Source: a virus
Lineage: Duplodnaviria > Heunggongvirae > Uroviricota > Caudoviricetes
Virus record (IMG/VR): IMGVR_UViG_2740892236_000007
Length of the DNA: 14,507 nucleotides
Direction: 5' to 3' (one strand)
In this document: positions 1-14,507 of the stretch, in pieces
Layout of the letters: the number at the start of each line of letters is the position of its first letter
Position numbering within the stretch: the stretch's first letter is position 1
Made by a program: the position numbers and the translations under genes
Notes under the pieces: model-generated
Database searches by the model: none
The model's input: the letters and a program-made list of their open reading frames with translations, nothing else
What the model was told of the DNA's origin: nothing

Positions 1-71
1 ACCAAAGCATGACATCTCTGTTTCGCACCGAAGGTGACACTTCTGCTTTGCGTTGACAGGAGAAGCAGGCT

Positions 72-227
72 ATGAAGCAGCAAAAGGCGATGTTAATCGC
101 CCTGATCGTCATCTGTTTAACCGTCATAGTGACGGCACTGGTAACGAGGAAAGACCTCTGCGAGGTACGAATCCGAACCGGCCAGACGGAGGTCGCTGTC
201 TTCACAGCTTACGAACCTGAGGAGTAA
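72..227 (+). CDS. hokD: Hok-family type I toxin, 51 aa (HokD/RelF-like)
   Basis: ATG 72, TAA 225-227; translation MKQQKAMLIALIVICLTVIVTALVTRKDLCEVRIRTGQTEVAVFTAYEPEE, a hydrophobic helix plus charged tail. Below the ORF-track size cutoff, found by manual reading. A short upstream frame (MTSLFRTEGDTSALR, stop at 55-57) resembles a mok-type leader. Confidence 0.85.
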   Translation: MKQQKAMLIALIVICLTVIVTALVTRKDLCEVRIRTGQTEVAVFTAYEPEE

Positions 228-295
228 GAGACCCGGCGGGGGAGAAATCCCTCGCCACCTCTGATGTGGCAGGCATCCTCAACGCACCCGCACTT

Positions 296-320
296 AACCC
301 GCTTCGGCGGGTTTTTGTTT
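296..320 (+). terminator. Rho-independent terminator after hok-like gene
   Basis: Stem AACCCGC (296-302) / GCGGGTT (307-313) with TTCG loop, followed by a T-run. Confidence 0.6.
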
Positions 321-335
321 TTATTTTCAACGCGT

Positions 336-365
336 TTGAAGTTCTGGACGGTGCCGGAATAGAAT
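336..365 (+). promoter_or_regulatory. Candidate sigma70 promoter upstream of rem
   Basis: TTGAAG (336-341), 18-nt spacer, TAGAAT (360-365); pattern match only. Confidence 0.35.
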
Positions 366-443
366 CAAAAATACTTAAGTAGCGCGCAGGGATAAGAGGG
401 ATGGTCCCTTAAAGGGGAGAGCTAATTATCCGGAAGGATTCTG

Positions 444-695
444 ATGATGAACATCGAAGAACTGCGTAAAATTTTTTGTGAAGATGGCCTCTATGCTGTG
501 TGCGTTGAAAATGGAAATCTTGTTAGTCATTACCGCATTATGTGTTTGCGAAAGAATGGGGCTGCGTTAATTAATTTTGTGGATGCTCGGGTCACGGACG
601 GATTTATCTTGCGCGAAGGTGAGTTTGTCACTTCATTACAGGCATTGAAAGAGATCGGAATAAAAGCTGGCTTTTCTGCTTTTTCAGGAGAATAA
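444..695 (+). CDS. rem: Rem-like small prophage protein, 83 aa
   Basis: ORF with SD GGAAGGA 6 nt upstream; translation MMNIEELRKIFCEDGLYAVC... matches recalled Rem; synteny hok-rem-ydfU as in Qin-type prophages. Confidence 0.8.
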   Translation: MMNIEELRKIFCEDGLYAVCVENGNLVSHYRIMCLRKNGAALINFVDARVTDGFILREGEFVTSLQALKEIGIKAGFSAFSGE

Positions 696-761
696 ACTCA
701 TCTACAATCTTGCGCGGGGCTGAACTCCCGCTGAGTAACACCGTGCCACCGGAGAAAACCG

Positions 762-1040
762 ATGGCACGCAACGCAAAATATTACAATTCTGATAATTCG
801 CCCGTTCTTGCCTGCACGCACGGGCGGTATTCTCACGCATTCAAGTCTGAATGGTTCCAGCACCCTCCATGCACTGCAGAACAGGCCGAATGGCTGATTC
901 ATTCTTACCGCAGGCGCGGGTTCGAGGTTAAGAAAGCTCTCAGTCTCGACTATCGGCACTGGATAATCTCTGTCAGGCTGCCTTATTCCGAACGCCCACC
1001 ACGTGCGTCCCGCACTTTCCAGCAACGGATCTGGAGGTAA
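762..1040 (+). CDS. Hypothetical protein, 92 aa, translationally coupled to the downstream DUF968 gene
   Basis: SD GGAGAAAA before ATG 762; stop TAA 1038-1040 lies between SD GGAGG (1033-1037) and the GTG 1042 start of the next gene; family not recognised. Confidence 0.45.
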   Translation: MARNAKYYNSDNSPVLACTHGRYSHAFKSEWFQHPPCTAEQAEWLIHSYRRRGFEVKKALSLDYRHWIISVRLPYSERPPRASRTFQQRIWR

Positions 1041-1041
1041 C

Positions 1042-2091
1042 GTGCGGGTATTACTTAGACCTGTTCTGGTGCCTGAGCTTGGGCTGGTGGTCCTTAAGCC
1101 GGGCCGTGAATCCATACAGATATTTCATAATCCTCGAGTGCTGGTGGAACCGGAACCAAAAAGCATGCGTAATCTGCCATCCGGAGTCGTTCCTGCCGTT
1201 CGCCAGCCGCTGGCGGAAGACAAAACATTGCTGCCGTTTTTTAGTAACGAACGGGTGATTCGTGCTGCTGGCGGCGTTGGCGCATTGTCCGACTGGCTAT
1301 TACGTCATGTTACATCCTGCCAGTGGCCTAATGGCGATTACCATCACACTGAAACAGTCATTCACCGTTATGGTACCGGCGCAATGGTGTTGTGCTGGCA
1401 CTGCGACAACCAACTGCGTGACCAGACATCGGAATCACTGGAGCTGCTTGCTCAACAAAATCTGACAGCATGGGTGATTGACGTCATCCGTCACGCAATA
1501 AGCGGTACGCAGGAGCGGGAATTATCTTTGGCTGAATTATCCTGGTGGGCGGTCTGCAATCAGGTGGTGGATGCACTACCTGAGGCTGTATCGCGTCGTT
1601 CGCTGGGATTACCAGCGGAAAAAATCTGCTCGGTGTACCGCGAAAGCGACATCGTACCGGGAGAGCAGACCGCCACCAGCATATTGAAACAACGCACAAA
1701 AAATCTTGCACCGTTGCCTTACGCCCACCAGCAACAAAAATCACCACAGGAAAAGACGGTGGTAAGCATCACCGTTGATCCAGAGTCTCCGGAATCTTTC
1801 ATGAAGCTGCCTAAACGTCGCCGCTGGGTTAAGGAGAAATACACACGTTGGGTTAAGACACAGCCGTGTGCTTGCTGCGGTATGCCAGCCGACGATCCGC
1901 ATCATCTGATTGGTCACGGGCAGGGCGGAATGGGAACAAAAGCACATGATCTCTTTGTGTTGCCTTTGTGCAGAAAGCATCACAACGAGCTGCATACGGA
2001 TACAGTGGCATTTGAAGATAAGTATGGCTCCCAACTGGAGCTGATATTTCGTTTTATCGATCGCGAGCTGGCAATTGGCGTACTGGCGTAA
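1042..2091 (+). CDS. ydfU: DUF968-family protein with HNH-like Cys/His motif (YdfU-like), 349 aa from GTG
   Basis: Long ORF (track 1003..2091); preferred start GTG 1042 with SD GGAGG; C-terminal CACCG...HH...C..HHNELH motif; position between rem and Q. Confidence 0.8.
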   Translation: MRVLLRPVLVPELGLVVLKPGRESIQIFHNPRVLVEPEPKSMRNLPSGVVPAVRQPLAEDKTLLPFFSNERVIRAAGGVGALSDWLLRHVTSCQWPNGDYHHTETVIHRYGTGAMVLCWHCDNQLRDQTSESLELLAQQNLTAWVIDVIRHAISGTQERELSLAELSWWAVCNQVVDALPEAVSRRSLGLPAEKICSVYRESDIVPGEQTATSILKQRTKNLAPLPYAHQQQKSPQEKTVVSITVDPESPESFMKLPKRRRWVKEKYTRWVKTQPCACCGMPADDPHHLIGHGQGGMGTKAHDLFVLPLCRKHHNELHTDTVAFEDKYGSQLELIFRFIDRELAIGVLA

Positions 2092-2104
2092 GTGGAGAAC
2101 GAGC

Positions 2105-2857
2105 ATGAACCTTGAAGCCTTACCAAAATATTACTCCCCAAAATCTCCAAAATTGAGCGATGACGCTCCAGCGACAGGCACCGGTTGTTTAACAATTACG
2201 GATGTAATGGCAGCGCAGGGGATGGTGCAGTCGAAAGCACCACTTGGGTTGGCCTTATTTCTGGCAAAAGTTGGTGTTCAGGACCCTCAGTTTGCGATTG
2301 AAGGCCTGCTAAATTACGCGATGGCACTGGATAACCCGACATTGAACAAATTGAGTGAAGAAATCCGGTTACAGATTATTCCTTACCTCGTGAGTTTTGC
2401 CTTTGCTGATTACTCCAGGTCTGCGGCAAGTAAGGCTCGCTGTGAGCATTGTTCAGGTACGGGATTTTATAATGTATTGCGCGAAGTGGTGAAACACTAC
2501 AGACGCGGGGAATCTGTAATCAAGGAAGAATGGGTGAAGGAACTATGTCAGCATTGCCATGGTAAGGGCGAAGCCAGCACAGCGTGCAGAGGGTGTAAGG
2601 GTAAAGGGATTGTTCTGGATGAAAAAAGAACCCGGTTTCATGGCGTACCGGTATATAAGATTTGTGGGCGTTGTAATGGAAACCGGTTTAGTCGTTTACC
2701 GACCACGCTGGCACGACGTCATGTCCAGAAGCTGGTACCAGACCTGACCGATTATCAGTGGTATAAGGGGTATGCGGACGTCATTGGTAAACTGGTAACA
2801 AAGTGCTGGCAGGAAGAAGCATACGCGGAAGCGCAATTGAGGAAGGTGACGAGATAA
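2105..2857 (+). CDS. quuQ: Late-gene antitermination protein Q, 250 aa
   Basis: Repeated CxxC..G zinc-finger-like motifs (CEHCSGTG, CQHCHGKG, CRGCKGKG, CGRCNGNR); SD GGAGA before ATG 2105 (track start 2075 is an in-frame upstream ATG overlapping ydfU); followed by promoter/terminator module. Confidence 0.8.
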   Translation: MNLEALPKYYSPKSPKLSDDAPATGTGCLTITDVMAAQGMVQSKAPLGLALFLAKVGVQDPQFAIEGLLNYAMALDNPTLNKLSEEIRLQIIPYLVSFAFADYSRSAASKARCEHCSGTGFYNVLREVVKHYRRGESVIKEEWVKELCQHCHGKGEASTACRGCKGKGIVLDEKRTRFHGVPVYKICGRCNGNRFSRLPTTLARRHVQKLVPDLTDYQWYKGYADVIGKLVTKCWQEEAYAEAQLRKVTR

Positions 2858-2888
2858 ATGATTTTTGCTGAAGATGGCGACATGATGT

Positions 2889-2917
2889 TTGCATTTTTCA
2901 AAAAATATGGATAAAAT
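2889..2917 (+). promoter_or_regulatory. Candidate late promoter (PR'-like) downstream of Q
   Basis: TTGCAT (2889-2894), 17-nt spacer, TAAAAT (2912-2917), about 30 bp after the Q stop; predicted start near 2924. Confidence 0.45.
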
Positions 2918-2962
2918 TTTTTCAACGATGGGCTTTGTATACCCGACGTTAAGAAAAAGTAG

Positions 2963-2990
2963 AAAACCCGCTGATGAGCGGGTTTTGTGC
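2963..2990. terminator. Bidirectional intrinsic terminator (tR'-like on +, cspF terminator on -)
   Basis: AAAACCCGC / GCGGGTTTT stem with TGATGA loop; A-run upstream and T-run downstream so it can act on both strands. Confidence 0.6.
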
Positions 2991-3278
2991 TTTAAATGGG
3001 GCAATGGTAATGTTGAATCTCATCCCGGGACTCATGTCTGTTAACTTATTATTTAGCTGGTGACTTGGTTATTTGCCTGATGTTTAAAATGTTTTCTTCC
3101 AGTACAATGTCCCTAAACACAATGAGTCTGCTTATTATATTATTAGCAGAGCTATTACGGCCAAAGTACAGCATAAGCTTTTAAAGCCAATCAACCAGTC
3201 ATCAAGACAGACGGGGTTATTCATAAAAACTCTCCATGTGTGATCCGATGGGGCCTGAAATTAAAGCTTTAATATAGC

Positions 3279-3491
3279 TCATGAAAGGTAAACATTGGCA
3301 GCTGAAGGGCCACGCAGACCATTTATCCGGCAAAATTCCACGCGTAATCCGGTGGTAATTTCTTCTGCATCGCGGAGATTGAGCGCTGAAACATGAAGCT
3401 GGACATCGATACGACCATCGGATGGGGTGATAAGACCCTTGCCGCTTTTGCCGTCAAAGGTTTTGACAATTCCTGTCATTTTACGGGACAA
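3279..3491 (-). CDS. cspF: CspA-family cold-shock domain protein, 70 aa (CspF/CspH type)
   Basis: Translation [27 protein letters not shown]...[10 protein letters not shown]; divergent from cspB. Confidence 0.85.
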
Positions 3492-3595
3492 AAAAATTCC
3501 TTAATACTGATAACTTGGCGCACTATACACACGTTCCTGAAGAAAGCTATAGTTTTTTGATGGGGTTGAAGATGGCTGGATGTCTAAAATAAACA

Positions 3596-3624
3596 TTGCT
3601 TCATATGTTCAACTATGCGTTAAT
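3596..3624 (+). promoter_or_regulatory. Candidate cspB promoter (cspA-like)
   Basis: TTGCTT (3596-3601), 17-nt spacer, GTTAAT (3619-3624); predicts a ~160-nt 5' UTR; GCCGAAAGGC upstream-box-like element at ~3761-3770. Confidence 0.45.
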
Positions 3625-3791
3625 GATTGCGTCGGTTTGAAGAACAGACGATATACGAAGTAGTTTACTAAAGCAGTTCTCATTTCAGGTGTTATTCACT
3701 TATTCCTTCTTTGAGTCTCTCCAATTAAGTACGAAGTCGTTTCTGTTATGCAAACCATTTATGCCGAAAGGCTCAAGTTAAGGAATGTAGA

Positions 3792-4007
3792 ATGTCAAAT
3801 AAAATGACTGGTTTAGTAAAATGGTTTAACGCTGATAAAGGTTTCGGCTTTATTTCTCCTGTTGATGGTAGTAAAGATGTGTTTGTGCATTTTTCTGCGA
3901 TTCAGAATGATAATTATCGAACCTTATTTGAAGGTCAAAAGGTTACCTTCTCTATAGAGAGTGGTGCTAAAGGTCCTGCAGCAGCAAATGTCATCATTAC
4001 TGATTAA
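3792..4007 (+). CDS. cspB: Cold-shock protein CspB, 71 aa
   Basis: Translation [71 protein letters not shown] with RNP motifs. Confidence 0.95.
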
Positions 4008-4288
4008 AATTCATCGCTCGTCTGTATACGATAACGAAGAAGGCTGATGCCTGAGTAGAGATACGGACAGAGTAGTGAATATTGGATCTCTTTAATAAAA
4101 AGTAAGGAGGTCCAATACATGAAACAATGGCTAGCATATTTGGCAAAATCTTAATCAGGAAAAGTATGCTAACCATTGTGGTGAAGTGCAGGTTTGCTGC
4201 ATGAATAGTTTTACAGCAGAAGCTAACTGCTGGCATGGCAAAACAAAGTGCGTAAGTGGATGACTCCCACAAAAAGCACCACAATCTC

Positions 4289-4311
4289 AAACCCGCTCAG
4301 GCGGGTTTTTT
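4289..4311 (+). terminator. Rho-independent terminator ending the cspB transcription unit
   Basis: AAACCCGC / GCGGGTTT stem, TCAG loop, T-run. Confidence 0.6.
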
Positions 4312-4370
4312 ATTATCTGCTTTAAATATATTATTAAAATATAAAAAATACTTGTTACTAATAAAATCAA

Positions 4371-4541
4371 TCAGGCTACAGCTTTAAGATTTGTCTGGAA
4401 TACTTTGTTGCAATGAGGGCAGATCAAAAGGGCACCTTTTTGTACTCTTGAAAAACTGTGTTCTGACTCTTGGGTGCAGTTTGGGCAGGAACATTTAACG
4501 AGATAATTACGGCGTGATTTTGAGTTTTTACGTTCTGACAT
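4371..4541 (-). CDS. Small zinc-ribbon-like protein, 56 aa (two CxxC pairs)
   Basis: Preferred internal ATG 4541 with AGGAAAAG SD; MSERKNSKSRRNYLVKCSCPNCTQESEHSFSRVQKGALLICPHCNKVFQTNLKAVA; track ORF 4371..4592. Confidence 0.5.
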   Translation of the reverse strand: MSERKNSKSRRNYLVKCSCPNCTQESEHSFSRVQKGALLICPHCNKVFQTNLKAVA

Positions 4542-4760
4542 AGGCTTTTCCTGTATAAATGGCCGTATACAGTACACTAAATATGAAAACATTTCTCGTA
4601 TTATTATTTTATATATGACTTTCTTTCAAAATAATTACCCACATTTTTAATGTGTATGTTTTTTTAGCGCCGTTGAGAACAACGTGTGCTGTCAAAACTA
4701 CCCCGTAGACTCCGATCTTTTCAAACATATTGCACCATCCGTGTACATCGGGGTGAGGAT

Positions 4761-4976
4761 ATGAAATCAATGGATAAGTTAACAACAGGTGTTGCCTATG
4801 GCACATCGGCGGGTAATGCTGGTTTCTGGGCATTGCAGTTACTCGATAAAGTAACTCCGTCACAGTGGGCTGCAATCGGTGTGCTGGGTAGCCTGGTTTT
4901 TGGCCTGCTGACGTATCTGACAAATCTTTATTTCAAGATTAAAGAAGACAGGCGTAAGGCTGCGAGAGGAGAGTAA
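4761..4976 (+). CDS. essQ: Class II holin (S21-type pinholin), 71 aa, dual-start motif
   Basis: SD GAGGAT before ATG 4761; MKSMDK dual start; two hydrophobic segments and charged C-tail; closely resembles recalled phage 21 S. Track start 4686 is an upstream in-frame ATG. Confidence 0.85.
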
Positions 4977-4980
4977 TCCA

Positions 4981-5288
4981 ATGACTCAAGACTATGAACT
5001 GGTTGTGAAAGGAGTCCGTAATTTTGAGAATAAAGTTACGGTAACTGTAGCCTTACAGGACAAAGAACGCTTTGACGGTGAAATTTTTGACCTGGATGTC
5101 GCCATGGACCGTGTTGAAGGAGCTGCGCTGGAGTTTTATGAGGCAGCAGCCAGAAGGAGCGTCCGGCAAGTCTTCCTGGAAGTAGCAGAAAAATTGTCAG
5201 AAAAAGTTGAGTCTTATCTGCAGCATCAGTACTCCTTTAAGATTGAAAATCCTGCCAATAAGCACGAGCGTCCTCATCATAAATATCT

Positions 5289-5292
<4 letters not shown>
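4981..5292 (+). CDS. ydfR: DUF1327-like protein inserted between holin and endolysin, 103 aa
   Basis: ORF with SD; stop overlaps endolysin start (ATGA at 5289-5292); synteny with Qin ydfR. Confidence 0.8.
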
Positions 5293-6316
<1,024 letters not shown>

Positions 6317-6498
6317 GGTAATATTAAATCGGAACATTTACATCGCGGAATGTAAAATTTAAATAAAAAGGACTCTTCCATGAGCCAAAATTCCTGAAAT
6401 CTTAAGGGTAAGATAAAAGGTCTTAATCAGAATGACACGTTTTATTAATAAATAAAGCCATTCTTTCATTGCTGTGTTTTTCTTTACAAAAGTAATCC

Positions 6499-6527
6499 TT
6501 GCTATGGGTGGTTAATCATGCGTTAAT
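6499..6527 (+). promoter_or_regulatory. Candidate cspI promoter (same architecture as cspB)
   Basis: TTGCTA (6499-6504), 17-nt spacer, GTTAAT (6522-6527); predicts a ~145-nt 5' UTR. Confidence 0.4.
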
Positions 6528-6678
6528 GGTGTTCTGGTTTGTTACAAATTTATCTGAAGCAGTCATTGTTATAATTTTATTATTTGTACCTCTTGAGATT
6601 TCCTTGTTGGTTTTTCTCTCTGATATTTTTTTTCGGACCATTCTGCCCAAGGGCTAATTTCTTCAAAAGGTAATAATT

Positions 6679-6891
6679 ATGTCTAACAAAATGACTGGTT
6701 TAGTGAAATGGTTTAACCCTGAAAAAGGTTTTGGTTTCATCACGCCGAAAGATGGCAGCAAAGATGTGTTTGTCCATTTCTCAGCAATTCAGAGCAACGA
6801 TTTCAAAACATTAACTGAGAATCAGGAAGTTGAATTTGGTATTGAGAACGGACCTAAAGGTCCTGCCGCTGTTCATGTAGTGGCGCTTTGA
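6679..6891 (+). CDS. cspI: Cold-shock protein CspI, 70 aa
   Basis: Translation [70 protein letters not shown]. Confidence 0.95.
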
Positions 6892-7095
6892 GGTAGACAA
6901 TATTACAAACCATATTCACTTTAGATGCCCGTGTTGTCATGGTTCCCAGTATAGAACATCATCTTTTGATGTTTCTGACATGAATCCTTTCGGGGCAAAA
7001 TGTATCTTTTGTAAATCAATGATGATTACATTTGATAATATTTCACAATACTTAAATGCCAGCCGTCTGTCGTTGGATTTAAAAAAGTGAAAATG

Positions 7096-7118
7096 AAGGC
7101 TCCTTCGGGAGCTTTTTT
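7096..7118 (+). terminator. Rho-independent terminator downstream of cspI
   Basis: AAGGCTCC / GGAGCTTT stem with TTCG tetraloop and T-run. Confidence 0.6.
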
Positions 7119-7237
7119 GCTTGGTGTCTATTCGATGGATACTCACATACTACGGTAACATCATGAAAAAAATCATAGTTTTTTTTAACTCTGAACCAGC
7201 AGTGGTAGTGCCAGCGATGACTGGAGTTAACACCATC

Positions 7238-7393
7238 ATGCGTGAATATCCAAATGGCGAAAAAACACACCTTACTGTAATGGCCGCAGGGTTTCCATCT
7301 CTGACCGGAGATCATAAAGTCATTTATGTAGCCGCGGATCGACATGTTACTTCAGAAGAAATTCTGGAAGCAGCAATAAGGCTCTTGAGTTGA
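7238..7393 (+). CDS. ynfN: YnfN-like small protein, 51 aa
   Basis: MREYPNGEKTHLTVMAAGFPSLTGDHKVIYVAADRHVTSEEILEAAIRLLS; in-frame upstream ATGs at 7217 and 7163 are alternative starts. Confidence 0.65.
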   Translation: MREYPNGEKTHLTVMAAGFPSLTGDHKVIYVAADRHVTSEEILEAAIRLLS

Positions 7394-7564
7394 TTTGATG
7401 CTATTGCATTGATAATTCAGGAAAATTCTCTTTGTCTGTTTGTGTAAAATTTAGACTATCGTATGTTGATTATTGCGATGTTTCATCTTATCTTTTACAC
7501 GTTTGCACCATATAATCGACTTACTGTGTAACTGGAAAGTCATAACAGACTAAAAGAGGAAATG

Positions 7565-7738
7565 ATGAATATTGAAAACTTAAAAACAAAAGCAGAAGCA
7601 GATATTTCTGAATATATAACAAAAAAAATTATTGAACTTAAGAAAAAGACCGGGAAAGAAGTTACCAGTATTCAGTTTACCGCACGGGAAAAAATGACGG
7701 GTCTTGAAAGCTATGATGTCAAGATTAATTTAATCTGA
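7565..7738 (+). CDS. gnsB: GnsB-like small protein, 57 aa
   Basis: MNIENLKTKAEADISEYITKKIIELKKKTGKEVTSIQFTAREKMTGLESYDVKINLI; found manually (below track cutoff); an extra in-frame ATG sits at 7562. Confidence 0.8.
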   Translation: MNIENLKTKAEADISEYITKKIIELKKKTGKEVTSIQFTAREKMTGLESYDVKINLI

Positions 7739-7764
7739 TGTATTCAATAATAAAATTTATCCAT

Positions 7765-7790
7765 AAACCTCGTTTTTACGGGGTTTTGTT
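7765..7790 (+). terminator. Putative terminator after gnsB
   Basis: AAACCTCG / CGGGGTTT stem (one G-U pair) followed by TTGTT. Confidence 0.45.
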
Positions 7791-7889
7791 ATATTTGAAT
7801 GGTTCCGAATATCTAAATCACAATTGTTGATGGTTTTTATTAAACCAATGCAGTCCGGCTCAGGAGTGAGAGAAGCCGGACGTTATGGT

Positions 7890-8300
7890 TTAGCGTGGTA
7901 AGATCTGTGTAGTTTTCTGGATGCTTTCAGTAAATAGTAATGAATTATCAAAGGTATAGTAATATCTTTTTTGTTCGTGGATATTTGTAACCCACCGAAA
8001 AACTCCTGCTTTAGCAAGGTTTCTTCTGTATTCCTGAAATGTGATCTCTCTGGATTTCAGCTTATTAGAGGTCGTTTCTATAAGATGCCTATCCTTTGAA
8101 AATTTGACAGACACAATGTTTTTTAGGCCCTTTAATAACACTGTATTATCATTTTTTAATACAATATGAACATTCTCTGTGGCTAAATAGTAAATGTAAT
8201 GTGAGACATTGTGACGTTTTAGCTCAGAATAAAACCATTGATAGTTTAAATCGTTTCGAACTTTATCAAATATTTGTTTAAAAATGACTACCTGATCCAT
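7890..8300 (-). CDS. ydfO: DUF1398-family protein (YdfO/YbcV-like), 136 aa
   Basis: Preferred start is the second ATG (8300) preceded by GGAAGG; track ORF 7890..8315. Confidence 0.8.
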
Positions 8301-8357
8301 AGATAAACCTTCCATGTGATATGAGGGGGCGTAGTCTGCACGATTATCTAAATTGCT

Positions 8358-8591
8358 TCAATCTGGTCTGACCTGTTTTCTGAGCAATTCAGTAATGTCA
8401 CTCTTTTCTTTGTTTGCTTCAGAAGAAACTCTTTTTTCTGAGCACAGTCTCCGGCGGCAGGCTTCAATGACCCAGGCTGAGAAATTCCCGGACCCTTTTT
8501 GCTCAAGAGCGATGTTAATTTGTTCAATCATTTGGTTAGGAAAGCGGATGTTGCGGGTTGTTGTTCTGCGGGTTCTGTTCTTCGTTGACAT
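8358..8591 (-). CDS. ynfO: Small basic protein with RHH-like N-terminus, 77 aa (YnfO-like)
   Basis: MSTKNRTRRTTTRNIRFPNQMIEQINIALEQ... resembles Arc/CopG strand-helix; name from recalled Qin synteny only. Confidence 0.6.
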   Translation of the reverse strand: MSTKNRTRRTTTRNIRFPNQMIEQINIALEQKGSGNFSAWVIEACRRRLCSEKRVSSEANKEKSDITELLRKQVRPD

Positions 8592-8720
8592 GAGGTTGCC
8601 CCGTATTCAGTGTCGCTGATTTGTATTGTCTGAAGTTGTTTTTACGTTAAGTTGATGCAGATCAATTAATACGATACCTGCGTCATAATTGATTATTTGA
8701 CGTGGTTTGATGGCCTCCAC

Positions 8721-8976
8721 GCACGTTGTGATATGTAGATGATAATCATTATCACTTTACGGGTCCTTTCCGGTGATCCGACAGGTTACGGGGCGGCGAC
8801 CTCGCGGGTTTTCGCTATTTATGAAAATTTTCCGGTTTAANNNNNNNNNNGTAGATGCACGTTGTGACATGTAGATGATAATTATTATCATTTTGCGGGT
8901 CCTTTCCGGCGATCCGACAGGTTACGGGGCGGCGACCTCGCGGGTTTTCGCTATTTATGAAAATTTTCCGGTTTAA
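8721..8976. repeat. Two diverged direct copies (~120 bp, about 96 percent identical) of the cos-proximal sequence, separated by N10 (8841-8850)
   Basis: Copy 1 8721-8840 and copy 2 8857-8976 both contain ...CCGACAGGTTACG GGGCGGCGACCTCGCGGGTTTTCGCTATTTATGAAAATTTTCCGGTTTAA with 5 mismatches. Confidence 0.85.
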
Positions 8977-9085
8977 GGTGTTTCCGTTCTTCTTCGTCGT
9001 AACTTAATGTTTTTATTTAAAATACCCCCTGAAAAGAAAGGAAACGACAGGTGCTGAAAGCGGGCTTTTTGGCCTTTGTCGTTTC
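8927..9085 (+). other. Lambda-type cos site: cosN (GGGCGGCGACCT, 8927-8938) plus cosB with Nu1-binding-site-like repeats
   Basis: Near-identity to recalled lambda left end; GTTTCCGTTCTTCTTCG, GAAAGGAAACGACAG and TGTCGTTTCCTTTCTC repeats upstream of nu1. A second cosN copy lies at 8791-8802. Confidence 0.8.
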
Positions 9086-9115
9086 CTTTCTCTGTTTTTG
9101 TCCGTGGAATGAACA

Positions 9116-9373
9116 ATGGAAGTCAACAAAAAGCAGCTGGCTGACATTTTCGGTGCGAGTATCCGTACCATTCAGAACTGGCAGGAACAGGGAATGCCCG
9201 TTCTGCGAGGCGGTGGCAAGGGTAATGAGGTGCTTTATGACTCTGCCGCCGTCATAAAATGGTATGCCGAAAGGGATGCTGAAATTGAGAACGAAAAGCT
9301 GCGCCGGGAAGTTGAAGAACTGCGGCAGGCCAGCGAGACAGATCTCCAGCCACCCGCGCTACGGCATGGGTAA
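9116..9373 (+). pseudogene. Terminase small subunit Nu1 homolog, N-terminal ~77 codons only
   Basis: MEVNKKQLADIFGASIRTIQNWQEQGMPVLRGGGKGNEVLYDSAAVIKWYAERDAEIENEKLRREVEELRQAS matches recalled lambda Nu1 DNA-binding domain; homology ends near 9353, frame closes at 9373. Confidence 0.8.
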
Positions 9374-10603
9374 ACGTCTTGGTGCGGCAGATGTGGATAA
9401 ATGGGCGCTGTATGTCATCGGCCAGTGTTGCGACCAGTCGGTGCCGGACGGTTTTGGCGGCACGGAGCCGCGCATCACCTGTAATGCCTGGCTGACCACA
9501 CAGCGTAAGGCGTGGGATGTTCTCAGTGATTTCTGCTCGGCGATGCGCTGTATGCCGGTATGGAACGGGCAGACGCTGACGTTCGTGCAGGACCGACCAT
9601 CAGATAAGGTGTGGACCTATAACCGCAGTAATGTGGTGATGCCGGATGATGGCGCGCCGTTCCGCTACAGCTTCAGCGCCCTGAAGGACCGCCATAATGC
9701 CGTTGAGGTGAACTGGATTGACCCGGATAACGGCTGGGAGACGGCGACAGAGCTTGTGGAGGACACGCAGGCCATTGCCCGTTACGGTCGTAACGTCACG
9801 AAGATGGATGCCTTTGGCTGTACCAGGCGGGGGCAGGCGCACCGAGCCGGGCTGTGGCTGATTAAAACGGAACTGCTGGAAACGCAGACCGTGGACTTCA
9901 GCGTGGGTGCCGAAGGGCTTCGCCATGTACCAGGTGATGTCATTGAAATCTGTGATGATGACTATGCGGGGATCAGCATCGGCGGGCGCGTGCTGGCGGT
10001 GAACAGCCAGACGCGGACACTGACGCTCGACCGTGAAATCACGCTGCCATCCTCCGGCACCACGCTGATAAGCCTGGTTGACGGGCAGGGTAATCCGGTG
10101 AGCGTGGAGGTCCAGTCCGTCACCGACGGCGTGAAGGTGAAAGTGAGCCGGGTTCCTGACGGCGTTGCCGAGTACAGCGTGTGGGGGCTGAAGCTGCCGA
10201 CGCTGCGTCAGCGCCTGTTCCGCTGTGTGAGTATCCGTGAGAACGATGACGGTACGTATGCCATCACTGCCGTGCAGCATGTACCGGAGAAAGAAGCCAT
10301 CGTGGATAACGGGGCGCACTTTGACGGTGACCAGAGCGGCACGGTGAATGGTGTCACGCCGCCAGCAGTTCAGCACCTGACCGCAGAAGTCACCGCAGAC
10401 AGCGGGGAATACCAGGTGCTGGCGCGCTGGGACACGCCGAAGGTGGTGAAGGGGGTGAGCTTTATGCTTCGCCTGACCGTGGCAGCGGACGACGGCAGTG
10501 AGCGGTTGGTCAGCACGGCCCGGACGACGGAAACCACATATCGCTTCACGCAGCTGGCGCTGGGAAATTACAGGCTGACAGTCCGGGCGGTAAATGCATG
10601 GGG
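9354..10603 (+). pseudogene. Internal fragment of lambda J-like tail tip protein
   Basis: Frame-0 translation (...FRCVSIRENDDGTYAITAVQHVPEKEAIVDNGAHFDG...RAVNAWGQ) matches recalled lambda J; no N- or C-terminus; junctions at ~9353 and ~10604. Confidence 0.8.
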
Positions 10604-10906
10604 ACAGCCGGTGCACATACCCATTCGATGACATTTGTTTCAGGTGGTTCCAGTGGTGCTCCGGGAAGTGGATCACCTGATTATTCTAAATACAGTGTTA
10701 ACACTTCTTCTGCAGGCGCTCATACGCACTCTGTATCGGGTACTGCTGCAAGCGCAGGTGCACACGCATATACTGTCGGTATTGGTGCTCATACGCACTC
10801 CGTTGCGATTGGTTCACATGGACATACCATCACCGTTAACGCTGCTGGTAACGCGGAAAACACCGTCAAAAACATCGCATTTAACTATATTGTGAGGCTT
10901 GCATAA
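10604..10906 (+). pseudogene. Side tail fiber (Stf) C-terminal fragment fused to the J fragment
   Basis: GAHTHS repeats and ...[19 protein letters not shown]-terminus; stop overlaps tfa start (TAATG). Confidence 0.75.
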
Positions 10907-11486
10907 TGGCATTCAGAATGAGTGAACAACCACGGACCATAAAAATTTATAATCTGCTGGCCGGAACTAATGAATTTATTGGTGAAGGTGATGCATATAT
11001 TCCGCCTCATACAGGTCTGCCAGCAAACAGTACCGATATTGCACCGCCAGATATTCCGGCTGGCTTCGTGGCTGTTTTCAACAGTGATGAGTCATCGTGG
11101 CATCTTGTTGAAGACCATCGGGGTAAACAGTTTATGACGTGGCATCAGGGGACGCGTTATTTATTTCTGAACTCGGCTCATTACCGGAAAATGTTACCTG
11201 GTTATCCCCGGAAGGGGAGTTTCAGAAGTGGAACGGCACAGCCTGGGTGAAGGATACGGAAGCAGAAAAACTGTTCCGGATCCGGGAGGTGGAAGAAACA
11301 AAAAACAGCCTGATGCAGGTAGCCAGTGAGCATATAGCGCCGCTTCAGGATGCTGTGGATCTGGAAATCGCAACGGAGGAAGAAACCTTGTTGCTGGAAG
11401 CCTGGAAAAAGTATCGGGTATTGCTGAACCGTGTTGATACGTCAACTGCACAGGATATTGAATGGCCAGTAGCACCTATAGGGTAA
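10906..11486 (+). pseudogene. Tail fiber assembly protein Tfa, disrupted by a 1-nt frameshift near 11128
   Basis: N-terminal part in one frame (10906..11250), C-terminal part [17 protein letters not shown]... in another frame (to 11486). Confidence 0.75.
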
Positions 11487-12406: not shown

Positions 12407-12990
12407 CTTTATCAATGACTTATCTCCCGACTTCCCGCCTTGCTTTTCCTAAACAGAACAATCGTAGAATATTCTTGAAGGGTTAGATCGTCACTGTTTT
12501 CTGTTCGATACTGTGACATTCAGCACTTGATTCGCTATGGATCTGACAGGAAGGTTTTGAGCGAAAATTTGCAGTTATTCAGTCGTTTTCTTATCGGTCA
12601 CCATTATTCTTTTAGACATTGATCCTACAAAGCTGCCGCAAAGTTGGTGGTGGGAACTGAAGTTGCGTAGAGAAGGGGTCAATACCCGGAGGCAAACATG
12701 GGCTGGCAAAAGTGTAGCGGTATTAGGCGCAGCTATTTAGCCTAGTTATGTTTTATGAAAACTTGATATCATATAAGTGTCTTACTTATTGGCTGTAAAT
12801 AAGTTTTTCCTAAGGAATTGTTTCTTGAGTATCATTTGTAACTGTAACGGAATTTATAATCCTTTGCTTTATTGTTACGGTATTTTTTATCACACCCTAT
12901 TTTTTATATGGTTTTTTATACTGAAGTTTGGCAAAGTGAACTTTATATGCATATACTTCATCCTGGTTTCAGTTAAGTTGGGTGGATGAT

Positions 12991-13734
12991 ATGGCAACTA
13001 CATGTTCAGTTATATTGATTTTGGAGTCCTTTGATGTTTATTTCGGAAAAGAGAGTGTGTTTCTGGAGAGAGGTTCATCTGTACTTGTCGACTCTAGCTC
13101 TAGAGATTTTTTCCTGACATATCCTGAAAGAGTGATAGTGGCGGATTTTGGCGCTGAGTTTATTAGTCGCTATTTGAAAGCTAATAACTTAAGGGATATT
13201 TCTGATTGTAGGGAATATCCATCTTATTTAAAAATAAACTTTGCTGACTTCAGTTTAATTAAAGGATTAATTAGTTGGGCTAATCACTGTGCTGAATACA
13301 TAGAAATTTTTGATGAGTCTATTGCTTTTACATGTCTCTCTGCATTTTCTTCTGAAAAACAATTTGGAGTATTTCTGTTTGAATGTTTGAAAAGCACAGG
13401 GGCTAAAGTTAAAACGATTATTCATACGGATTTATCTGCACCATGGCGTCTTAAGGATATATCATCAAGATTATATCTCAGCGAAAGTTTACTAAAGAGG
13501 AAATTGAAAGAAGAGGGGGTATCATTCAGTAAGATCATACTTGATGAGAGGATGCAAATGGCTGAATATTTACTCAGCACTCGTTGTTATCCTATTAGTA
13601 AAGTAGCTAAGGTCTGTGGTTATGCCAGTGTCTCATACTTTACTTATGTATTTAGACGTTATTTTGGTGTTTCTCCAAGTCAATACTCTCAGAGCAGTTC
13701 AGAAAGTAAAATTCTTACTCACCAGGGAATCTGA
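12991..13734 (+). CDS. AraC/XylS-family transcriptional regulator, AppY/YdeO/GadX-like, 247 aa
   Basis: C-terminal double HTH (WRLKDISSRLYLSESLLKRKLKEEG...CGYASVSYFTYVFRRYFGVSPSQY); N-terminus resembles AppY/YdeO; AT-rich gene; track ORF begins at GTG 12982. Confidence 0.85.
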   Translation: MATTCSVILILESFDVYFGKESVFLERGSSVLVDSSSRDFFLTYPERVIVADFGAEFISRYLKANNLRDISDCREYPSYLKINFADFSLIKGLISWANHCAEYIEIFDESIAFTCLSAFSSEKQFGVFLFECLKSTGAKVKTIIHTDLSAPWRLKDISSRLYLSESLLKRKLKEEGVSFSKIILDERMQMAEYLLSTRCYPISKVAKVCGYASVSYFTYVFRRYFGVSPSQYSQSSSESKILTHQGI

Positions 13735-13740
13735 TCATTG

Positions 13741-14243
13741 TTCTTGCCCCCTTATTTCCAGACAGGGGGTGTATCTTAAGTTAACGTTACCCGCTGACGT
13801 CGATATTCTCGCGGAGAGCGATAACCCAACGCACTGTGCGGATGGTTTTCATTGTAATGTTCGATCGCCACTGCAAGATTATGCAATGCCGTTCTTACAT
13901 TCGGTTTCGGCATGAACGCGATGTAGTCTTCCTTCATCGTTTTCACGAACCTTTCTGCCATTCCATTACTCTGAGGACTGCTGATTGCCGTTGTGCAGGG
14001 CTCCAGATTCAACTCTCTGGCGAACTGCCATGTTTCATGCGCTCTATACGCTGAACCGTTATCTGTCAGCCACTGGATGGACTGTTCCGGTACTTTATCG
14101 CCAAAGCGTTTTTCTATCGCTCCTAACATGACATCCTGCACTGTCGCTTTATCGTAACCTCCCGTGCTTGCGGCCCAGTCTATGGCTTCACGATCGCAAC
14201 AGTCCAGGGCGAACGTAACACGCAGTTTTGAATCGCCACGGGT
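13741..14243 (-). mobile_element. IS3-family (IS2-group-like) remnant: terminal inverted repeat plus transposase OrfB C-terminal half (~155 codons)
   Basis: Minus-strand frame 13776..14243 (...[24 protein letters not shown]...[13 protein letters not shown]...[14 protein letters not shown]) resembles the recalled IS2 InsD C-terminal half; 13741-13765 resembles the recalled IS2 terminal repeat; N-terminal half absent. Confidence 0.75.
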
Positions 14244-14291
14244 TTAACAGACACCTCAGAGTCATTTAAGATGGCTTAAAGAGAGGTGCCC

Positions 14292-14507
14292 ATGAGCGGT
14301 AAGCGTTATCCCGAAGAGTTTAAAACTGAAGCAGTCAAACAGGTTGTTGATCGCGGTTATTCTGTTGCCAGCGTTGCAACACGTCTCGATATCACCACCC
14401 ACAGCCTTTATGCCTGGATAAAGAAGTACGGTCCGGATTACTCCACTTTTTCATCAAGCCAATCCGCCCACCACTGCATCATTTCTCTGCGCTTATCGAG
14501 ATACTGA
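14292..14507 (+). mobile_element. IS3-family OrfA-like N-terminal fragment (HTH), second IS in opposite orientation
   Basis: MSGKRYPEEFKTEAVKQVVDRGYSVASVATRLDITTHSLYAWIKKYGPD fits the IS3-family OrfA N-terminal pattern; downstream part diverges and the window ends at 14507. Confidence 0.6.

What the first reader, a model, noticed from the sequence alone, without database searches (positions are those of the whole stretch)
7890..8591. RHH-like small protein and DUF1398 protein as a two-gene module in the lysis-to-cos moron site
On the minus strand, a 77-aa basic protein with an Arc/CopG-like N-terminus is followed 57 bp downstream by a 136-aa DUF1398 protein. The slot between lysis genes and cos commonly holds accessory cargo. 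A small DNA-binding protein paired with an uncharacterised effector resembles toxin-antitoxin or exclusion modules, but no function is established, so this is hypothesis only.
Basis: inference. Interest (0 to 1): 0.5.

Follow-up and report, generated by a model that had tools for sequence, protein, structure and literature searches.

The report
Two unlinked Qin prophage accessory genes
These are the already named E. coli Qin-prophage genes ynfO (a small, probably ribbon-helix-helix DNA-binding protein) and ydfO (a DUF1398 protein with a solved structure but no known function). They lie side by side only in this phage lineage, and they are not a toxin-antitoxin-like pair.

Summary
On the minus strand, ynfO (8358-8591, 77 aa, net charge +8, Pfam DUF3950) lies 57 bp upstream of ydfO (7890-8300, 136 aa, DUF1398). 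YdfO matches PDB 2HH8 at 140 of 141 positions. Both lie between the lysis genes and cos of a Qin-type lambdoid prophage.

The RHH call for YnfO is supported, though only by weak signals that agree with each other.
- Phage lambda and DLP12 carry the same two genes 613 bp apart, with an opposite-strand gene (lambdap79/ybcW) between them. Qin has 54 bp there, which also gives YnfO a different C-terminal tail.
- DUF3950 occurs in 153 phage records and DUF1398 in 43.
- None of 40 DUF3950 loci in other Enterobacterales has a DUF1398 gene nearby. Most of those loci lie in integrase/primase satellites.
- DUF1398 also stands alone in E. coli, as ycgX.
- Neither protein hits a defence model.

Most likely these are two independent accessory genes: a stand-alone RHH regulator, and an AT-rich cargo gene that keeps its own upstream region with a PdhR-binding palindrome. 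This is ordinary, already annotated biology. The only unexplored lead is what DUF3950 regulators do in phages and satellites.

The parts
8358..8591 (-). ynfO CDS, 77 aa, YlcI/YnfO family (DUF3950)
   Evidence: ORF. Pfam DUF3950 E=2.7e-21. NCBIfam NF041551 E=3.3e-9. RefSeq name.
8442..8558 (-). Conserved core of YnfO (aa 12-50): putative ribbon strand T-R-N-I-R-F-P, helix A, the N-F-S cap and the start of helix B
   Evidence: I15, R16, F37 and V41 are invariant, and I25, S38, W40, A44 and C45 nearly so, in 18 divergent members. AF2 helices at 19-32 and 37-73. Arc-register alignment. RHH-dominated Foldseek list.
8375..8428 (.). 54-bp segment specific to the Qin type. It stands where lambda has 613 bp including lambdap79/ybcW, and it encodes part of the lineage-specific YnfO tail.
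   Evidence: blastn of window against lambda DE3: 7871-8374 aligns with lambda 3001-3505 (84%) and 8429-8840 with 4119-4530 (98.5%). It is flanked by a 14-nt direct repeat at 8373-8386 and 8431-8444.
8361..8377 (-). Palindrome AACAGGTCAGACCAGAT, a PdhR-box-like site 61-77 bp upstream of the ydfO ATG that overlaps the last ynfO codons
   Evidence: Sequence. Reported as a PdhR genomic-SELEX site between ynfO and ydfO; the equivalent ybcV site goes with a 10-fold mRNA drop in a pdhR mutant (PMC7660256). It lies inside the block homologous to lambda's ybcV upstream region.
8301..8357 (-). 57-bp spacer between ynfO and ydfO. It is in frame with both genes and has no stop codon other than the ynfO TGA.
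   Evidence: Sequence. No terminator-like site here. Rare TGA-to-TGG variants give a 233-aa fusion, P0122.
7890..8300 (-). ydfO CDS, 136 aa, DUF1398; AT-rich (32-37% GC)
   Evidence: Pfam E=1.7e-46. PDB 2HH8 E=2e-90. GC profile. RefSeq name.
7765..7786 (.). Stem-loop between the convergent genes gnsB and ydfO; a terminator-like site
   Evidence: Terminator scan, 9-bp stem plus T run on the + strand. Its use by the minus-strand transcript is inferred.
8661..8693 (.). Imperfect inverted repeat ATCAATTAATACG-N7-CGTCATAATTGAT, 70-102 bp upstream of the ynfO ATG; a candidate operator
   Evidence: the repeat finder I7: 13-nt arms, 85% complementary. Function is inferred only.
8735..8753 (.). Fur box (16 of 19 matches to consensus) in the ynfO-nohA divergent region
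   Evidence: Own scan: it is the only site at this level apart from its artefactual duplicate, and shuffles give 0.115 sites of 15/19 or better. It corresponds to the experimentally shifted 'nohA' Fur site at -233 (PMC2189734).
8791..8802 (+). cosN cohesive-end sequence GGGCGGCGACCT, about 200 bp upstream of the ynfO start. cosQ (GGGTCCT, from memory of the lambda literature) is at 8761-8767.
   Evidence: Sequence. The cos feature of lambda DE3 aligns here.

Best explanation
The region holds two independent prophage accessory genes that are neighbours only in the Qin lineage.

**1. ynfO.** It encodes a stand-alone ribbon-helix-helix DNA-binding protein of the small Enterobacterales family DUF3950 (YlcI/YnfO). 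Like Arc or CopG, it most likely dimerises through its N-terminal strand (T-R-N-I-R-F-P) to form a two-stranded ribbon. The ribbon reads the major groove, with the basic N-terminal arm and the N-F-S helix cap holding the backbone. It would then act as a transcription regulator. The gene is a portable unit: it sits antisense in the late operon, just before the packaging genes of lambdoid phages, and in the regulatory zone of integrase/primase satellites.

**2. ydfO.** It is an AT-rich DUF1398 cargo gene with a solved structure, no known activity and no role in lytic growth. It keeps the first 75 bp or so of the upstream region seen before lambda/DLP12 ybcV, including a palindrome that binds the host regulator PdhR in vitro. 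It is therefore probably controlled by the host, not by YnfO.

**3. The adjacency.** The 57-bp spacing and the 23-residue YnfO tail reflect a rearrangement in which 54 bp in Qin replace the 613 bp that lambda has. I read this as a deletion that removed the ybcW-like gene.

**Shown:** gene identities, family memberships, lack of co-conservation, and the rearrangement.

**Inferred:** the RHH fold and DNA binding, a regulator role, an independent ydfO promoter, and the direction of the rearrangement.
For: **Identity**
- Pfam, NCBIfam, PHROG and PDB matches.
- RefSeq names.

**RHH fold**
- Conserved pattern and invariant I15/R16/F37/V41 in 18 members down to 27% identity.
- AF2 model with coil, helix 19-32 and helix 37-73, pLDDT 70.
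- The Foldseek top list is Arc (1myl, 1par, 1baz), ParD2, NikR, MazE6, PrpA and ParD1.
- hhalign against Arc gives E=0.015 in strand/helix-A register.
- A CopG-family chain is the second-best PDB profile hit.

**Regulator-like setting of the family**
- In 39 loci from different species, 5 have the same 10-nt perfect palindrome at least twice within 150 nt upstream of the DUF3950 start. Only 1 of 1825 control windows does (Fisher 2e-8).
- 11 of 39 have at least one such palindrome, against 10% of controls (p=0.0016).
- One satellite has TGGTACGTACCA twice, flanking a TATAAT and abutting the ATG.

**Independence of the two genes**
- 153 phage records carry DUF3950 and 43 carry DUF1398.
- BP-4795 has Rz-[DUF3950]-HNH-TerS; ev207 has Rz-bor-ylcI-cos.
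- 0 of 40 non-E. coli loci have DUF1398 within 5 kb; 22 of 40 have an integrase and 9 a primase.
- The 163-nt ynfO core has 9861 places in 4184 E. coli genomes, up to 12 per genome. Full-length ydfO is in 3011 genomes.
- ycgX stands alone between iraM and bluR.

**Mosaic structure**
- The ynfO-cos block is 98.5% identical to lambda, while the ydfO block is 84% identical, with the break at the 3' end of ynfO.
- In Stx phages the similarity starts exactly at the ATG of the DUF3950 ORF.

**ydfO**
- GC is 32-37%, against 45-50% for the lysis genes.
- lambdap78 is non-essential in CRISPRi (PMC10695390).
- PdhR site and ybcV dependence on pdhR (PMC7660256).
Against: - Every RHH signal is individually weak. 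No PDB sequence hit is significant, Foldseek gives E of 1.2 or more, and a monomer model cannot show the ribbon.
- No promoter passed the consensus scan upstream of either gene on the minus strand. ydfO could therefore simply be co-transcribed with ynfO. There is no terminator between them, and they are in the same frame.
- No perfect palindrome lies upstream of this ynfO.
- A rare natural YnfO-YdfO fusion exists, so a physical link between the two proteins is at least tolerated.
- In lambda-type phages all 43 DUF1398 carriers appear also to carry ylcI. A one-way dependence of ydfO on ynfO is therefore not excluded.
- The direction of the rearrangement, deletion in Qin or insertion in lambda, is not proven.
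Confidence: 0.7

Rival explanations
1. Regulator-plus-cargo pair. YnfO/YlcI is the dedicated transcription factor of the neighbouring DUF1398 gene (ydfO/ybcV), binding near the GGT-N3-ACC palindrome upstream of it. The pair would then be a regulated moron, not a toxin-antitoxin system.
For: - The two genes are neighbours in lambda, DLP12 and Qin.
- Every DUF1398-carrying phage seen also has ylcI.
- A conserved palindrome lies 61-77 bp upstream of ydfO.
- Candidate operators of satellite DUF3950 genes share GGT...ACC outer arms: TGGTACGTACCA and GGTGTACACC.
- The two genes share strand and frame, with no terminator between them.
Against: - Most DUF3950 genes have no DUF1398 nearby: at least 110 of 153 phage records and 0 of 40 loci from other genera.
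- The palindrome already has a documented binder, PdhR.
- Its 3-nt centre differs from the 4-nt centres of the satellite palindromes.
- ycgX has no such partner.
Confidence: 0.12
2. Packaging-boundary function. DUF3950 proteins act at or near the cos/terminase region. They might shield cos, control a promoter reading into the terminase genes in the lysogen, or mediate cross-talk between helper phages and satellites. ydfO would be an unrelated neighbour.
For: - The DUF3950 gene is the last gene before two unrelated packaging modules: lambda cos-Nu1 and HNH-Terminase_2.
- Here its ATG is about 200 bp from cosN, and the region between contains a proven Fur site.
- Satellites encode a DUF3950 domain fused to a TerS DNA-binding domain. 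That domain is 64% identical to the helper's TerS and matches the SF6 TerS DBD at E=1.6e-4.
- That fusion gene lies next to GTTAAACAC repeats, which resemble the GTTAACA repeats of the helper cos region.
Against: - Distant Nu1-type phages (Pseudomonas and others; 83 records under 60% identity) show no DUF3950.
- In satellites the gene lies near int/alpA and the replication genes, not near cos.
- The slot is a general cargo site, holding bor, cspI and gnsB.
- From established lambda biology, no such factor is known to be needed for packaging.
Confidence: 0.13
3. Toxin-antitoxin or abortive-infection/exclusion module. YnfO would be an RHH antitoxin and autorepressor, and YdfO the toxin or effector.
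For: - A small basic RHH-like gene lies directly upstream of a slightly larger gene of unknown function, on the same strand and in a prophage cargo slot.
- The neighbouring gene gnsB belongs to a family annotated as a toxin, so the slot does hold such genes.
Against: - The genes are not co-conserved in either direction.
- They are separated by an opposite-strand gene in lambda and DLP12.
- The YnfO C-terminal tail, where RHH antitoxins bind their toxin, differs between lineages, while YdfO is conserved.
- There are no PADLOC hits.
- The DUF1398 gene of lambda is dispensable.
- 2HH8 is a single-chain entry, so YdfO was made without a partner (that this implies low toxicity is an inference).
- The one published 'phenotype' of YdfO is a mix-up with YfdO.
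Confidence: 0.04

Closest known systems
ynfO-ydfO of the E. coli K-12 Qin cryptic prophage (RefSeq 'YlcI/YnfO family protein' and 'DUF1398 domain-containing protein'; YdfO structure PDB 2HH8)
   Same: These are the same genes. The window is 99.97% identical to a chromosome annotated this way. YdfO is 140/141 identical to 2HH8. The flanks (gnsB, nohA) are the same.
   Different: Nothing of substance. In this window nohA lies across a scaffold gap, and it comes from a slightly different copy (98.8% identity).
Right end of phage lambda and prophage DLP12: ybcV (lambdap78) - ybcW (lambdap79) - ylcI - cos
   Same: Homologous DUF1398 gene (79% aa identity) and DUF3950 gene (first 54 aa 98% identical). 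Same strand, same position before cos, and the same palindrome upstream of the DUF1398 gene.
   Different: In lambda, 613 bp with an opposite-strand gene separate the two; Qin has 54 bp. YlcI is 64 aa with a different tail. The ylcI ORF is not annotated in the classical lambda records.
Arc / Mnt / CopG ribbon-helix-helix repressors
   Same: Size, basic N-terminal arm, strand motif N-I-R-F-P against Arc N-L-R-W-P, two helices, a cap residue at the start of helix B, and phage origin.
   Different: There is no significant sequence or fold score. No operator or dimer has been demonstrated. The long helix B continues into a variable tail.
RHH antitoxins of type II toxin-antitoxin systems (ParD, CcdA, MazE6 N-domain, PrpA)
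   Same: Same probable DNA-binding fold; these appear among the Foldseek neighbours. The gene also precedes a second small gene.
   Different: No conserved partner, no conserved C-terminal partner-binding segment, a 57-bp gap, not the few-bp gap or overlap that is usual in my knowledge of these systems, and a partner that matched no defence-system model.
Rpp (redirecting phage packaging) proteins of Gram-negative PICIs
   Same: This applies only to the satellite relatives. Like Rpp, they combine a TerS-like DNA-binding domain with a dimerising module and are encoded by a satellite (PMC6739421).
   Different: Rpp is a winged helix plus coiled coil that mimics the Nu1 DNA-binding domain. The satellite protein is DUF3950 plus a Terminase_2-type helix-turn-helix. 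Nothing of this kind is present in the window.

Membership tests
DUF3950 / YlcI-YnfO family | Match to the family profile above the curated cut-off | tested here: met
   Pfam PF13132: 75.6 bits against a cut-off of 25. NCBIfam NF041551: 36.6 bits against 30.
DUF1398 / YdfO-like | Match to the family profile, and identity to the structurally solved member | tested here: met
   PF07166: 157.5 bits against a cut-off of 22. 2HH8: E=2e-90.
Ribbon-helix-helix (Arc/MetJ/CopG) superfamily | Strand-helix-helix topology with a short loop and an S/T/N cap at the start of helix B | tested here: met
   AF2 model: extended 13-18, helix 19-32, loop 33-36, helix from 37. N-F-S is conserved, with F37 invariant and S38 at 90% or more. 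Model confidence is only moderate (pLDDT 70).
Ribbon-helix-helix (Arc/MetJ/CopG) superfamily | Significant sequence or structure similarity to established members | tested here: inconclusive
   hhalign against Arc E=0.015 and against CopG E=0.28. PDB profile search: CopG-family chain at E=1.1. Foldseek best hit is Arc at E=1.2, TM 0.64 on the target, in a list dominated by RHH proteins.
Ribbon-helix-helix (Arc/MetJ/CopG) superfamily | Homodimer with an intermolecular two-stranded sheet that binds repeated DNA half-sites | not testable with these tools
   Only monomer prediction was available. Indirect support: repeated palindromes upstream of family members in satellites. None is perfect upstream of this gene.
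Type II toxin-antitoxin module | Antitoxin and toxin genes are co-inherited as a pair | tested here: not met
   153 against 43 phage records. 0 of 40 loci in other genera. Lone ycgX. Up to 12 ylcI copies per E. coli genome.
Type II toxin-antitoxin module | Tightly coupled bicistronic operon in all members | tested here: not met
   57-bp gap here. In lambda and DLP12 there is a 613-bp gap with an opposite-strand gene.
Type II toxin-antitoxin module | The second gene is toxic and is neutralised by the first | not testable with these tools
   Indirect evidence only: no PADLOC hit, lambdap78 dispensable, and YdfO deposited as a single chain.
Moron / lysogenic-conversion cargo | Variable presence among otherwise related phages at a module boundary, with deviating base composition | tested here: met
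   ydfO is present or absent among lambda-like phages. Its GC is 32-37%, against 45-50% for lysis genes and about 60% for tail genes. For ynfO the presence is much more constant and GC is 40-43%.
Moron / lysogenic-conversion cargo | Own promoter and terminator, expressed from the prophage | tested here: inconclusive
   No consensus promoter on the minus strand. There is a terminator-like stem-loop at 7765-7786. Published induction of ydfO mRNA by an ionic liquid shows that it is expressed (PMC4077768).

The most novel reading that the evidence does not exclude
DUF3950 proteins may be an unrecognised class of ribbon-helix-helix regulators shared by lambdoid phages and their satellites.

- In phages the gene sits antisense at the lysis/packaging boundary. 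In lambda and Qin it lies next to a Fur-bound site that has been credited to nohA.
- In helper-embedded and PICI-like satellites it sits behind arrays of perfect palindromes in the regulatory zone.
- Some satellite copies are fused to a copy of the helper's TerS DNA-binding domain, beside cos-like GTTAACA repeats.

On this reading YnfO/YlcI would be part of a helper-satellite or prophage-silencing circuit: control of terminase expression or of cos access, possibly responsive to iron. The ydfO neighbour would be incidental.
Probability: 0.15. Interest if true: 0.55.

Novelty: already known. Interest (0 to 1): 0.2.

Why it matters
As posed, the finding matters little. Both genes are named K-12 genes, one has a solved structure, and the module idea fails. 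The check has three useful results:

1. **It removes a tempting false lead.** An RHH-like gene followed by an unknown gene does not make a toxin-antitoxin pair.
2. **It gives a structural and functional hypothesis for a DUF.** DUF3950 is proposed to be an RHH DNA binder, and lambda itself carries an unannotated copy 200 bp from cos.
3. **It corrects the record on YdfO.** The only published 'phenotype' of YdfO belongs to YfdO.

If the satellite observations hold, DUF3950 could become a handle on how lambdoid helpers and their embedded satellites regulate each other.

Tried and rejected
- **Weak sequence hits for YdfO.** Parafibromin in PDB (E=0.014) and an anthranilate synthase model (E=2.7e-4, far below its cut-off) are treated as chance.
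- **PDB sequence search for YnfO.** Nothing significant.
- **Defence-system membership.** No PADLOC hit for YnfO or YdfO.
- **Known RNA in the region.** No Rfam match and no tRNA between 7700 and 9100.
- **Promoters.** The consensus scan found none on the minus strand upstream of either gene. My hand-picked weak candidates are not evidence and were dropped.
- **Satellite fusion as Rpp.** I considered whether the DUF3950::TerS-domain protein of the satellites is Rpp. It is not: Rpp is a winged helix plus coiled coil.
- **Viral-contig scan.** It returned only near-identical Qin-type loci, so it added nothing on diversity.
- **Literature.** There is no functional study of ynfO, ylcI, ydfO or ybcV. 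The oxidative-stress claim for YdfO is a gene-name error. One preprint that mentions lambdap79 could not be opened.
- **Strand residues and palindrome types.** Covariation between the DUF3950 strand residues and the palindrome types upstream is suggestive at best, and the sample is too small.
Full report
**What is there**

The minus strand of the window carries two ORFs at the stated place. One is 77 aa, at 8358-8591. The other runs 7890-8315. Its biologically likely start is the ATG at 8300, which gives 136 aa and is preceded at 8 nt by GGAAGG. The gap between the two genes is 57 bp.

- The first protein has 17 K/R against 9 D/E. It matches Pfam DUF3950 (E=2.7e-21), NCBIfam 'YlcI/YnfO family' and PHROG 949.
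- The second matches DUF1398 (E=1.7e-46). It differs at one position in 141 from the NMR structure 2HH8, 'hypothetical protein ydfO'.
- Window 1-8840 is 99.97% identical to an E. coli chromosome whose RefSeq annotation reads essD, ydfR, rrrQ, rzpQ, cspI, ynfQ, ynfR, ynfN, gnsB, ydfO, ynfO, nohA. This is the Qin cryptic lambdoid prophage.
- Some part of window 7700-9200 (gnsB to nohA) matches in 4841 of 5426 complete E. coli genomes; 2450 carry most of it.

**Is YnfO ribbon-helix-helix?**

The family is small. A search of 1.84 billion cluster representatives found only 120 at E of 1e-3 or better, and many of these are frameshifted copies of lambda DNA.

- The genuinely divergent members, down to 27% identity, keep a basic N-terminal arm, the strand motif I-R-F-P, an amphipathic helix (L-I-E-x-I), a short loop, and N-F-S-A-W-V-x-E-A-C. 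I15, R16, F37 and V41 are invariant.
- An AlphaFold model built on this alignment has pLDDT 70. It shows an extended N-terminus, helix 19-32 and helix 37-73. This is what an RHH monomer looks like without its partner strand.
- Foldseek against the PDB gives no significant hit; the best E is 1.2. Even so, the list is dominated by RHH proteins: Arc three times, ParD2, NikR, the MazE6 N-domain, PrpA and ParD1.
- A single targeted hhalign against Arc gives E=0.015. It aligns T-R-N-I-R-F-P-N-Q on Q-F-N-L-R-W-P-R-E, which places N14 and R16 on Arc residues 11 and 13. From my memory of the Arc-operator structure, those two residues contact DNA.
- CopG gives E=0.28. A CopG-family chain is second in a PDB profile search at E=1.1.

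Each signal is weak, but all point the same way. I put the RHH assignment at about 0.75.

**Are the two genes a unit?**

They are not, for five reasons.

*1. The adjacency is specific to the Qin lineage.*
- Phage lambda (DE3 record) has lambdap78, a DUF1398 protein that is over-extended to 177 aa in the annotation. It also has lambdap79 (ybcW-like) on the opposite strand, and an unannotated 64-aa YlcI ORF about 200 bp from cos.
- In blastn, window 7871-8374 aligns with lambda at 84% and window 8429-8840 at 98.5%. Between these two blocks, 54 bp in the window stand where lambda has 613 bp.
- The break falls inside the 3' end of ynfO. The last 23 residues of YnfO therefore differ from YlcI's tail, and the last 17 nt of ynfO are homologous to DNA that lies upstream of the DUF1398 gene in lambda.

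*2. Counts in the phage collection are very unequal.*
- DUF3950 is in 153 records and DUF1398 in 43.
- In Stx phages such as BP-4795 the order is Rz, DUF3950 on the opposite strand, HNH, Terminase_2-type TerS, TerL, with no DUF1398.
- In ev207 the order is Rz, bor, ylcI, cos.

*3. Other genera lack the pairing.*
- One genome per species was scanned. In 40 DUF3950 loci from Salmonella, Klebsiella, Serratia, Xenorhabdus, Pectobacterium, Proteus, Tatumella and others, none has a DUF1398 gene within 5 kb.
- 22 of these loci have a P4-type integrase, 9 a D5-type primase and 5 an AlpA.
- The immediate neighbours fall into no dominant family.

*4. DUF3950 is far more abundant within E. coli, and DUF1398 also occurs alone.*
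- The 163-nt ynfO core occurs at 9861 places in 4184 genomes, up to 12 per genome. Full-length ydfO-like sequence is in 3011 genomes.
- Nearly all genomes carry the lone paralogue ycgX between iraM and bluR.

*5. Nothing else supports a toxin or defence role.*
- Neither protein hits a PADLOC defence model.
- lambdap78 is dispensable in a CRISPRi map of lambda (PMC10695390).
- 2HH8 is a single-chain entry.

**What the pieces most likely do**

*ynfO.* It behaves as a portable unit.
- In Stx phages the similarity to the lambda type starts exactly at the ATG and ends within the ORF. The protein, not the cos-proximal DNA, is therefore what is conserved.
- Its gene is always antisense to the late operon and is the last gene before the packaging genes, in two unrelated packaging systems.
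- In satellites it lies between int/alpA and the replication genes, again on the opposite strand.
- There the gene is preceded by operator-like arrays:
  - TGGTACGTACCA twice, 33 bp apart, around a TATAAT and abutting the start codon.
  - TGTGCGCACA three times in a Klebsiella and a Rahnella locus.
  - TGTTTAAACA twice in Xenorhabdus and Morganella loci.
- The same 10-nt perfect palindrome occurs at least twice within 150 nt upstream in 5 of 39 loci, against 1 of 1825 control windows (Fisher 2e-8).
- This fits a small autoregulating DNA-binding protein. The palindromes could, however, belong to a divergently transcribed partner.
- Upstream of the window's ynfO there is only an imperfect inverted repeat (8661-8693) and a Fur box (see 'Regulation leads' below).

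*ydfO.* It looks like classical cargo.
- GC is 32-37%, and its presence varies among lambda-like phages.
- The first 75 bp of its upstream region are conserved with lambda.
- That region holds the palindrome AACAGGTCAGACCAGAT (8361-8377). A genomic SELEX study lists this as a PdhR site. In the same study the DLP12 paralogue ybcV lost 10-fold mRNA in a pdhR mutant (PMC7660256).
- ydfO mRNA rose about 100-fold after an imidazolium ionic-liquid shock (PMC4077768), and it changed on DicC induction.
- No activity can be assigned to the protein.

**Regulation leads and cautions**

- **Fur.** A 16/19 Fur box lies at 8735-8753. It is the only such site in the window apart from its artefactual duplicate, and shuffles give 0.115 sites of 15/19 or better.
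  - It is the site that was isolated in vivo and gel-shifted as the 'nohA' Fur site, 233 bp upstream of nohA (PMC2189734).
  - It is only about 150 bp from the ynfO start, and ynfO was not discussed in that paper.
- **Promoters.** No consensus promoter was found on the minus strand for either gene. Co-transcription of ydfO with ynfO therefore cannot be excluded.
- **Shared frame.** The two ORFs share a reading frame, with one TGA and 19 sense codons between them.
  - A TGA-to-TGG variant encoding a 233-aa fusion exists on at least six contigs.
  - All 72 junctions in the loci I held keep TGA.
- **Gene-name error.** The statement that YdfO overexpression protects against oxidative stress traces to a paper that studied YfdO of CPS-53 and never mentions ydfO in its main text.

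**A side branch: satellites**

- Two family members are DUF3950 domains fused to a TerS-type helix-turn-helix.
- In one E. coli chromosome the satellite that carries such a gene is inserted in the large-terminase gene of an HK97-like prophage. That prophage has its own DUF3950 gene before HNH-TerS.
- The fused domain is 64% identical to the helper's TerS DNA-binding domain and 53% to the satellite's own. It matches the SF6 TerS DNA-binding domain in PDB at E=1.6e-4.
- Four or five GTTAAACAC/GTTAACAC repeats precede that gene. Five or six GTTAACA repeats mark the helper's cos region.
- This recalls the logic of Rpp, but Rpp has a different fold (PMC6739421).
- All of this lies outside the window and is a lead only.
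- Distant Nu1-type phages lack DUF3950, so the protein is not a general packaging component.

**Verdict**

The proposed two-gene toxin-antitoxin or exclusion module is not supported.

The pair consists of two independent, already annotated prophage genes that lie side by side only in the Qin lineage. I read the cause as a deletion. Interest is low (0.2). What remains worth following is the role of DUF3950 regulators in lambdoid phages and their satellites.

Noticed in passing
window 8721-8976: A run of 10 N (8841-8850) is flanked by an imperfect 120-bp duplication: 8721-8840 against 8857-8976, 96% identical. The left side matches a finished chromosome at 99.97% and the right side at 98.8%. This looks like a scaffold join of two contigs ending in the cos region, possibly from different lambdoid prophage copies. 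cosN and the Fur box therefore appear twice.
   Followed up: partly
window 8735-8753: The experimentally confirmed 'nohA' Fur-binding site lies in the divergent ynfO-nohA region. It is nearer to the ynfO start (about 150 bp) than to nohA (about 233 bp in the real genome). ynfO may be the gene that is regulated by Fur, or may share that regulation.
   Followed up: partly
window 8300-8360: ynfO and ydfO share a reading frame, and only one TGA separates them. A TGA-to-TGG variant encodes a 233-aa YnfO-YdfO fusion (P0122). A second, shorter fusion exists (P0242).
   Followed up: partly
L002 4087-4281 (phage lambda DE3; lambda 48142-48303 region): Phage lambda itself encodes a 64-aa YlcI/DUF3950 protein about 200 bp from cos. 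It is not annotated in J02459, NC_001416 or the DE3 records. lambdap78 is annotated as 177 aa and called 'putative envelope protein' or 'head protein', but the conserved DUF1398 protein is 136 aa, and nothing seen here supports either name.
   Followed up: partly
L004 5545-5589; L051, L052, L060, L081, L085 upstream of position 5001: DUF3950 genes of integrase/primase satellites are preceded by two or three copies of perfect 10-12-nt palindromes: TGGTACGTACCA, TGTGCGCACA and TGTTTAAACA. These look like operator arrays.
   Followed up: partly
L004 5891-6363 and 8957-9078; L168 2879-2994: A satellite protein fuses a DUF3950 domain to a TerS DNA-binding domain. Its gene follows an array of GTTAAACAC repeats that resemble the GTTAACA repeats in the helper prophage's cos region. 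This could be a satellite cos site or an Rpp-like interference device.
   Followed up: partly
L014-L045, L061, L068 (genome-contig hits): Near-identical lambda right-end DNA turns up in assemblies of unrelated organisms, including Cohnella, Pedobacter, Streptomyces, Flavobacterium and an Arcanobacterium 'plasmid'. It is often a contig of about 3.5 kb. This is almost certainly lambda control or spike-in DNA left in the assemblies. It also inflates the protein clusters of both families.
   Followed up: no
literature (PMC4077768, PMC9181523): YdfO is credited with an oxidative-stress phenotype, and listed as an SrsR target, through confusion with yfdO of prophage CPS-53. The cited source never mentions ydfO in its main text.
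   Followed up: yes
window 7562-7738: gnsB is an intact 58-aa ORF here (GnsAB_toxin, E=3e-35). The otherwise 99.97% identical reference chromosome annotates it as frameshifted.
   Followed up: no
window 9116-10631: nohA (Nu1 homologue) is truncated after about 80 residues and runs into a 455-aa ORF with tail-tip J domains (Phage-tail_3, Ig_J). The whole head and most tail genes are deleted. The reference chromosome differs from the window between 9352 and 10305.
   Followed up: no
window 3631-4023, 6533-6918, 11248-11446: Rfam finds two cspA thermoregulator leaders, before cspB and cspI, and an IS009 RNA element inside the tail-fibre assembly gene region.
   Followed up: no
window 12982-14507: Beyond the prophage tail genes lie an AT-rich AraC-family regulator gene (250 aa) and fragments of IS3-family transposase genes (rve domains). 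This differs from the pinQ-ydfK end of Qin in the reference chromosome.
   Followed up: no
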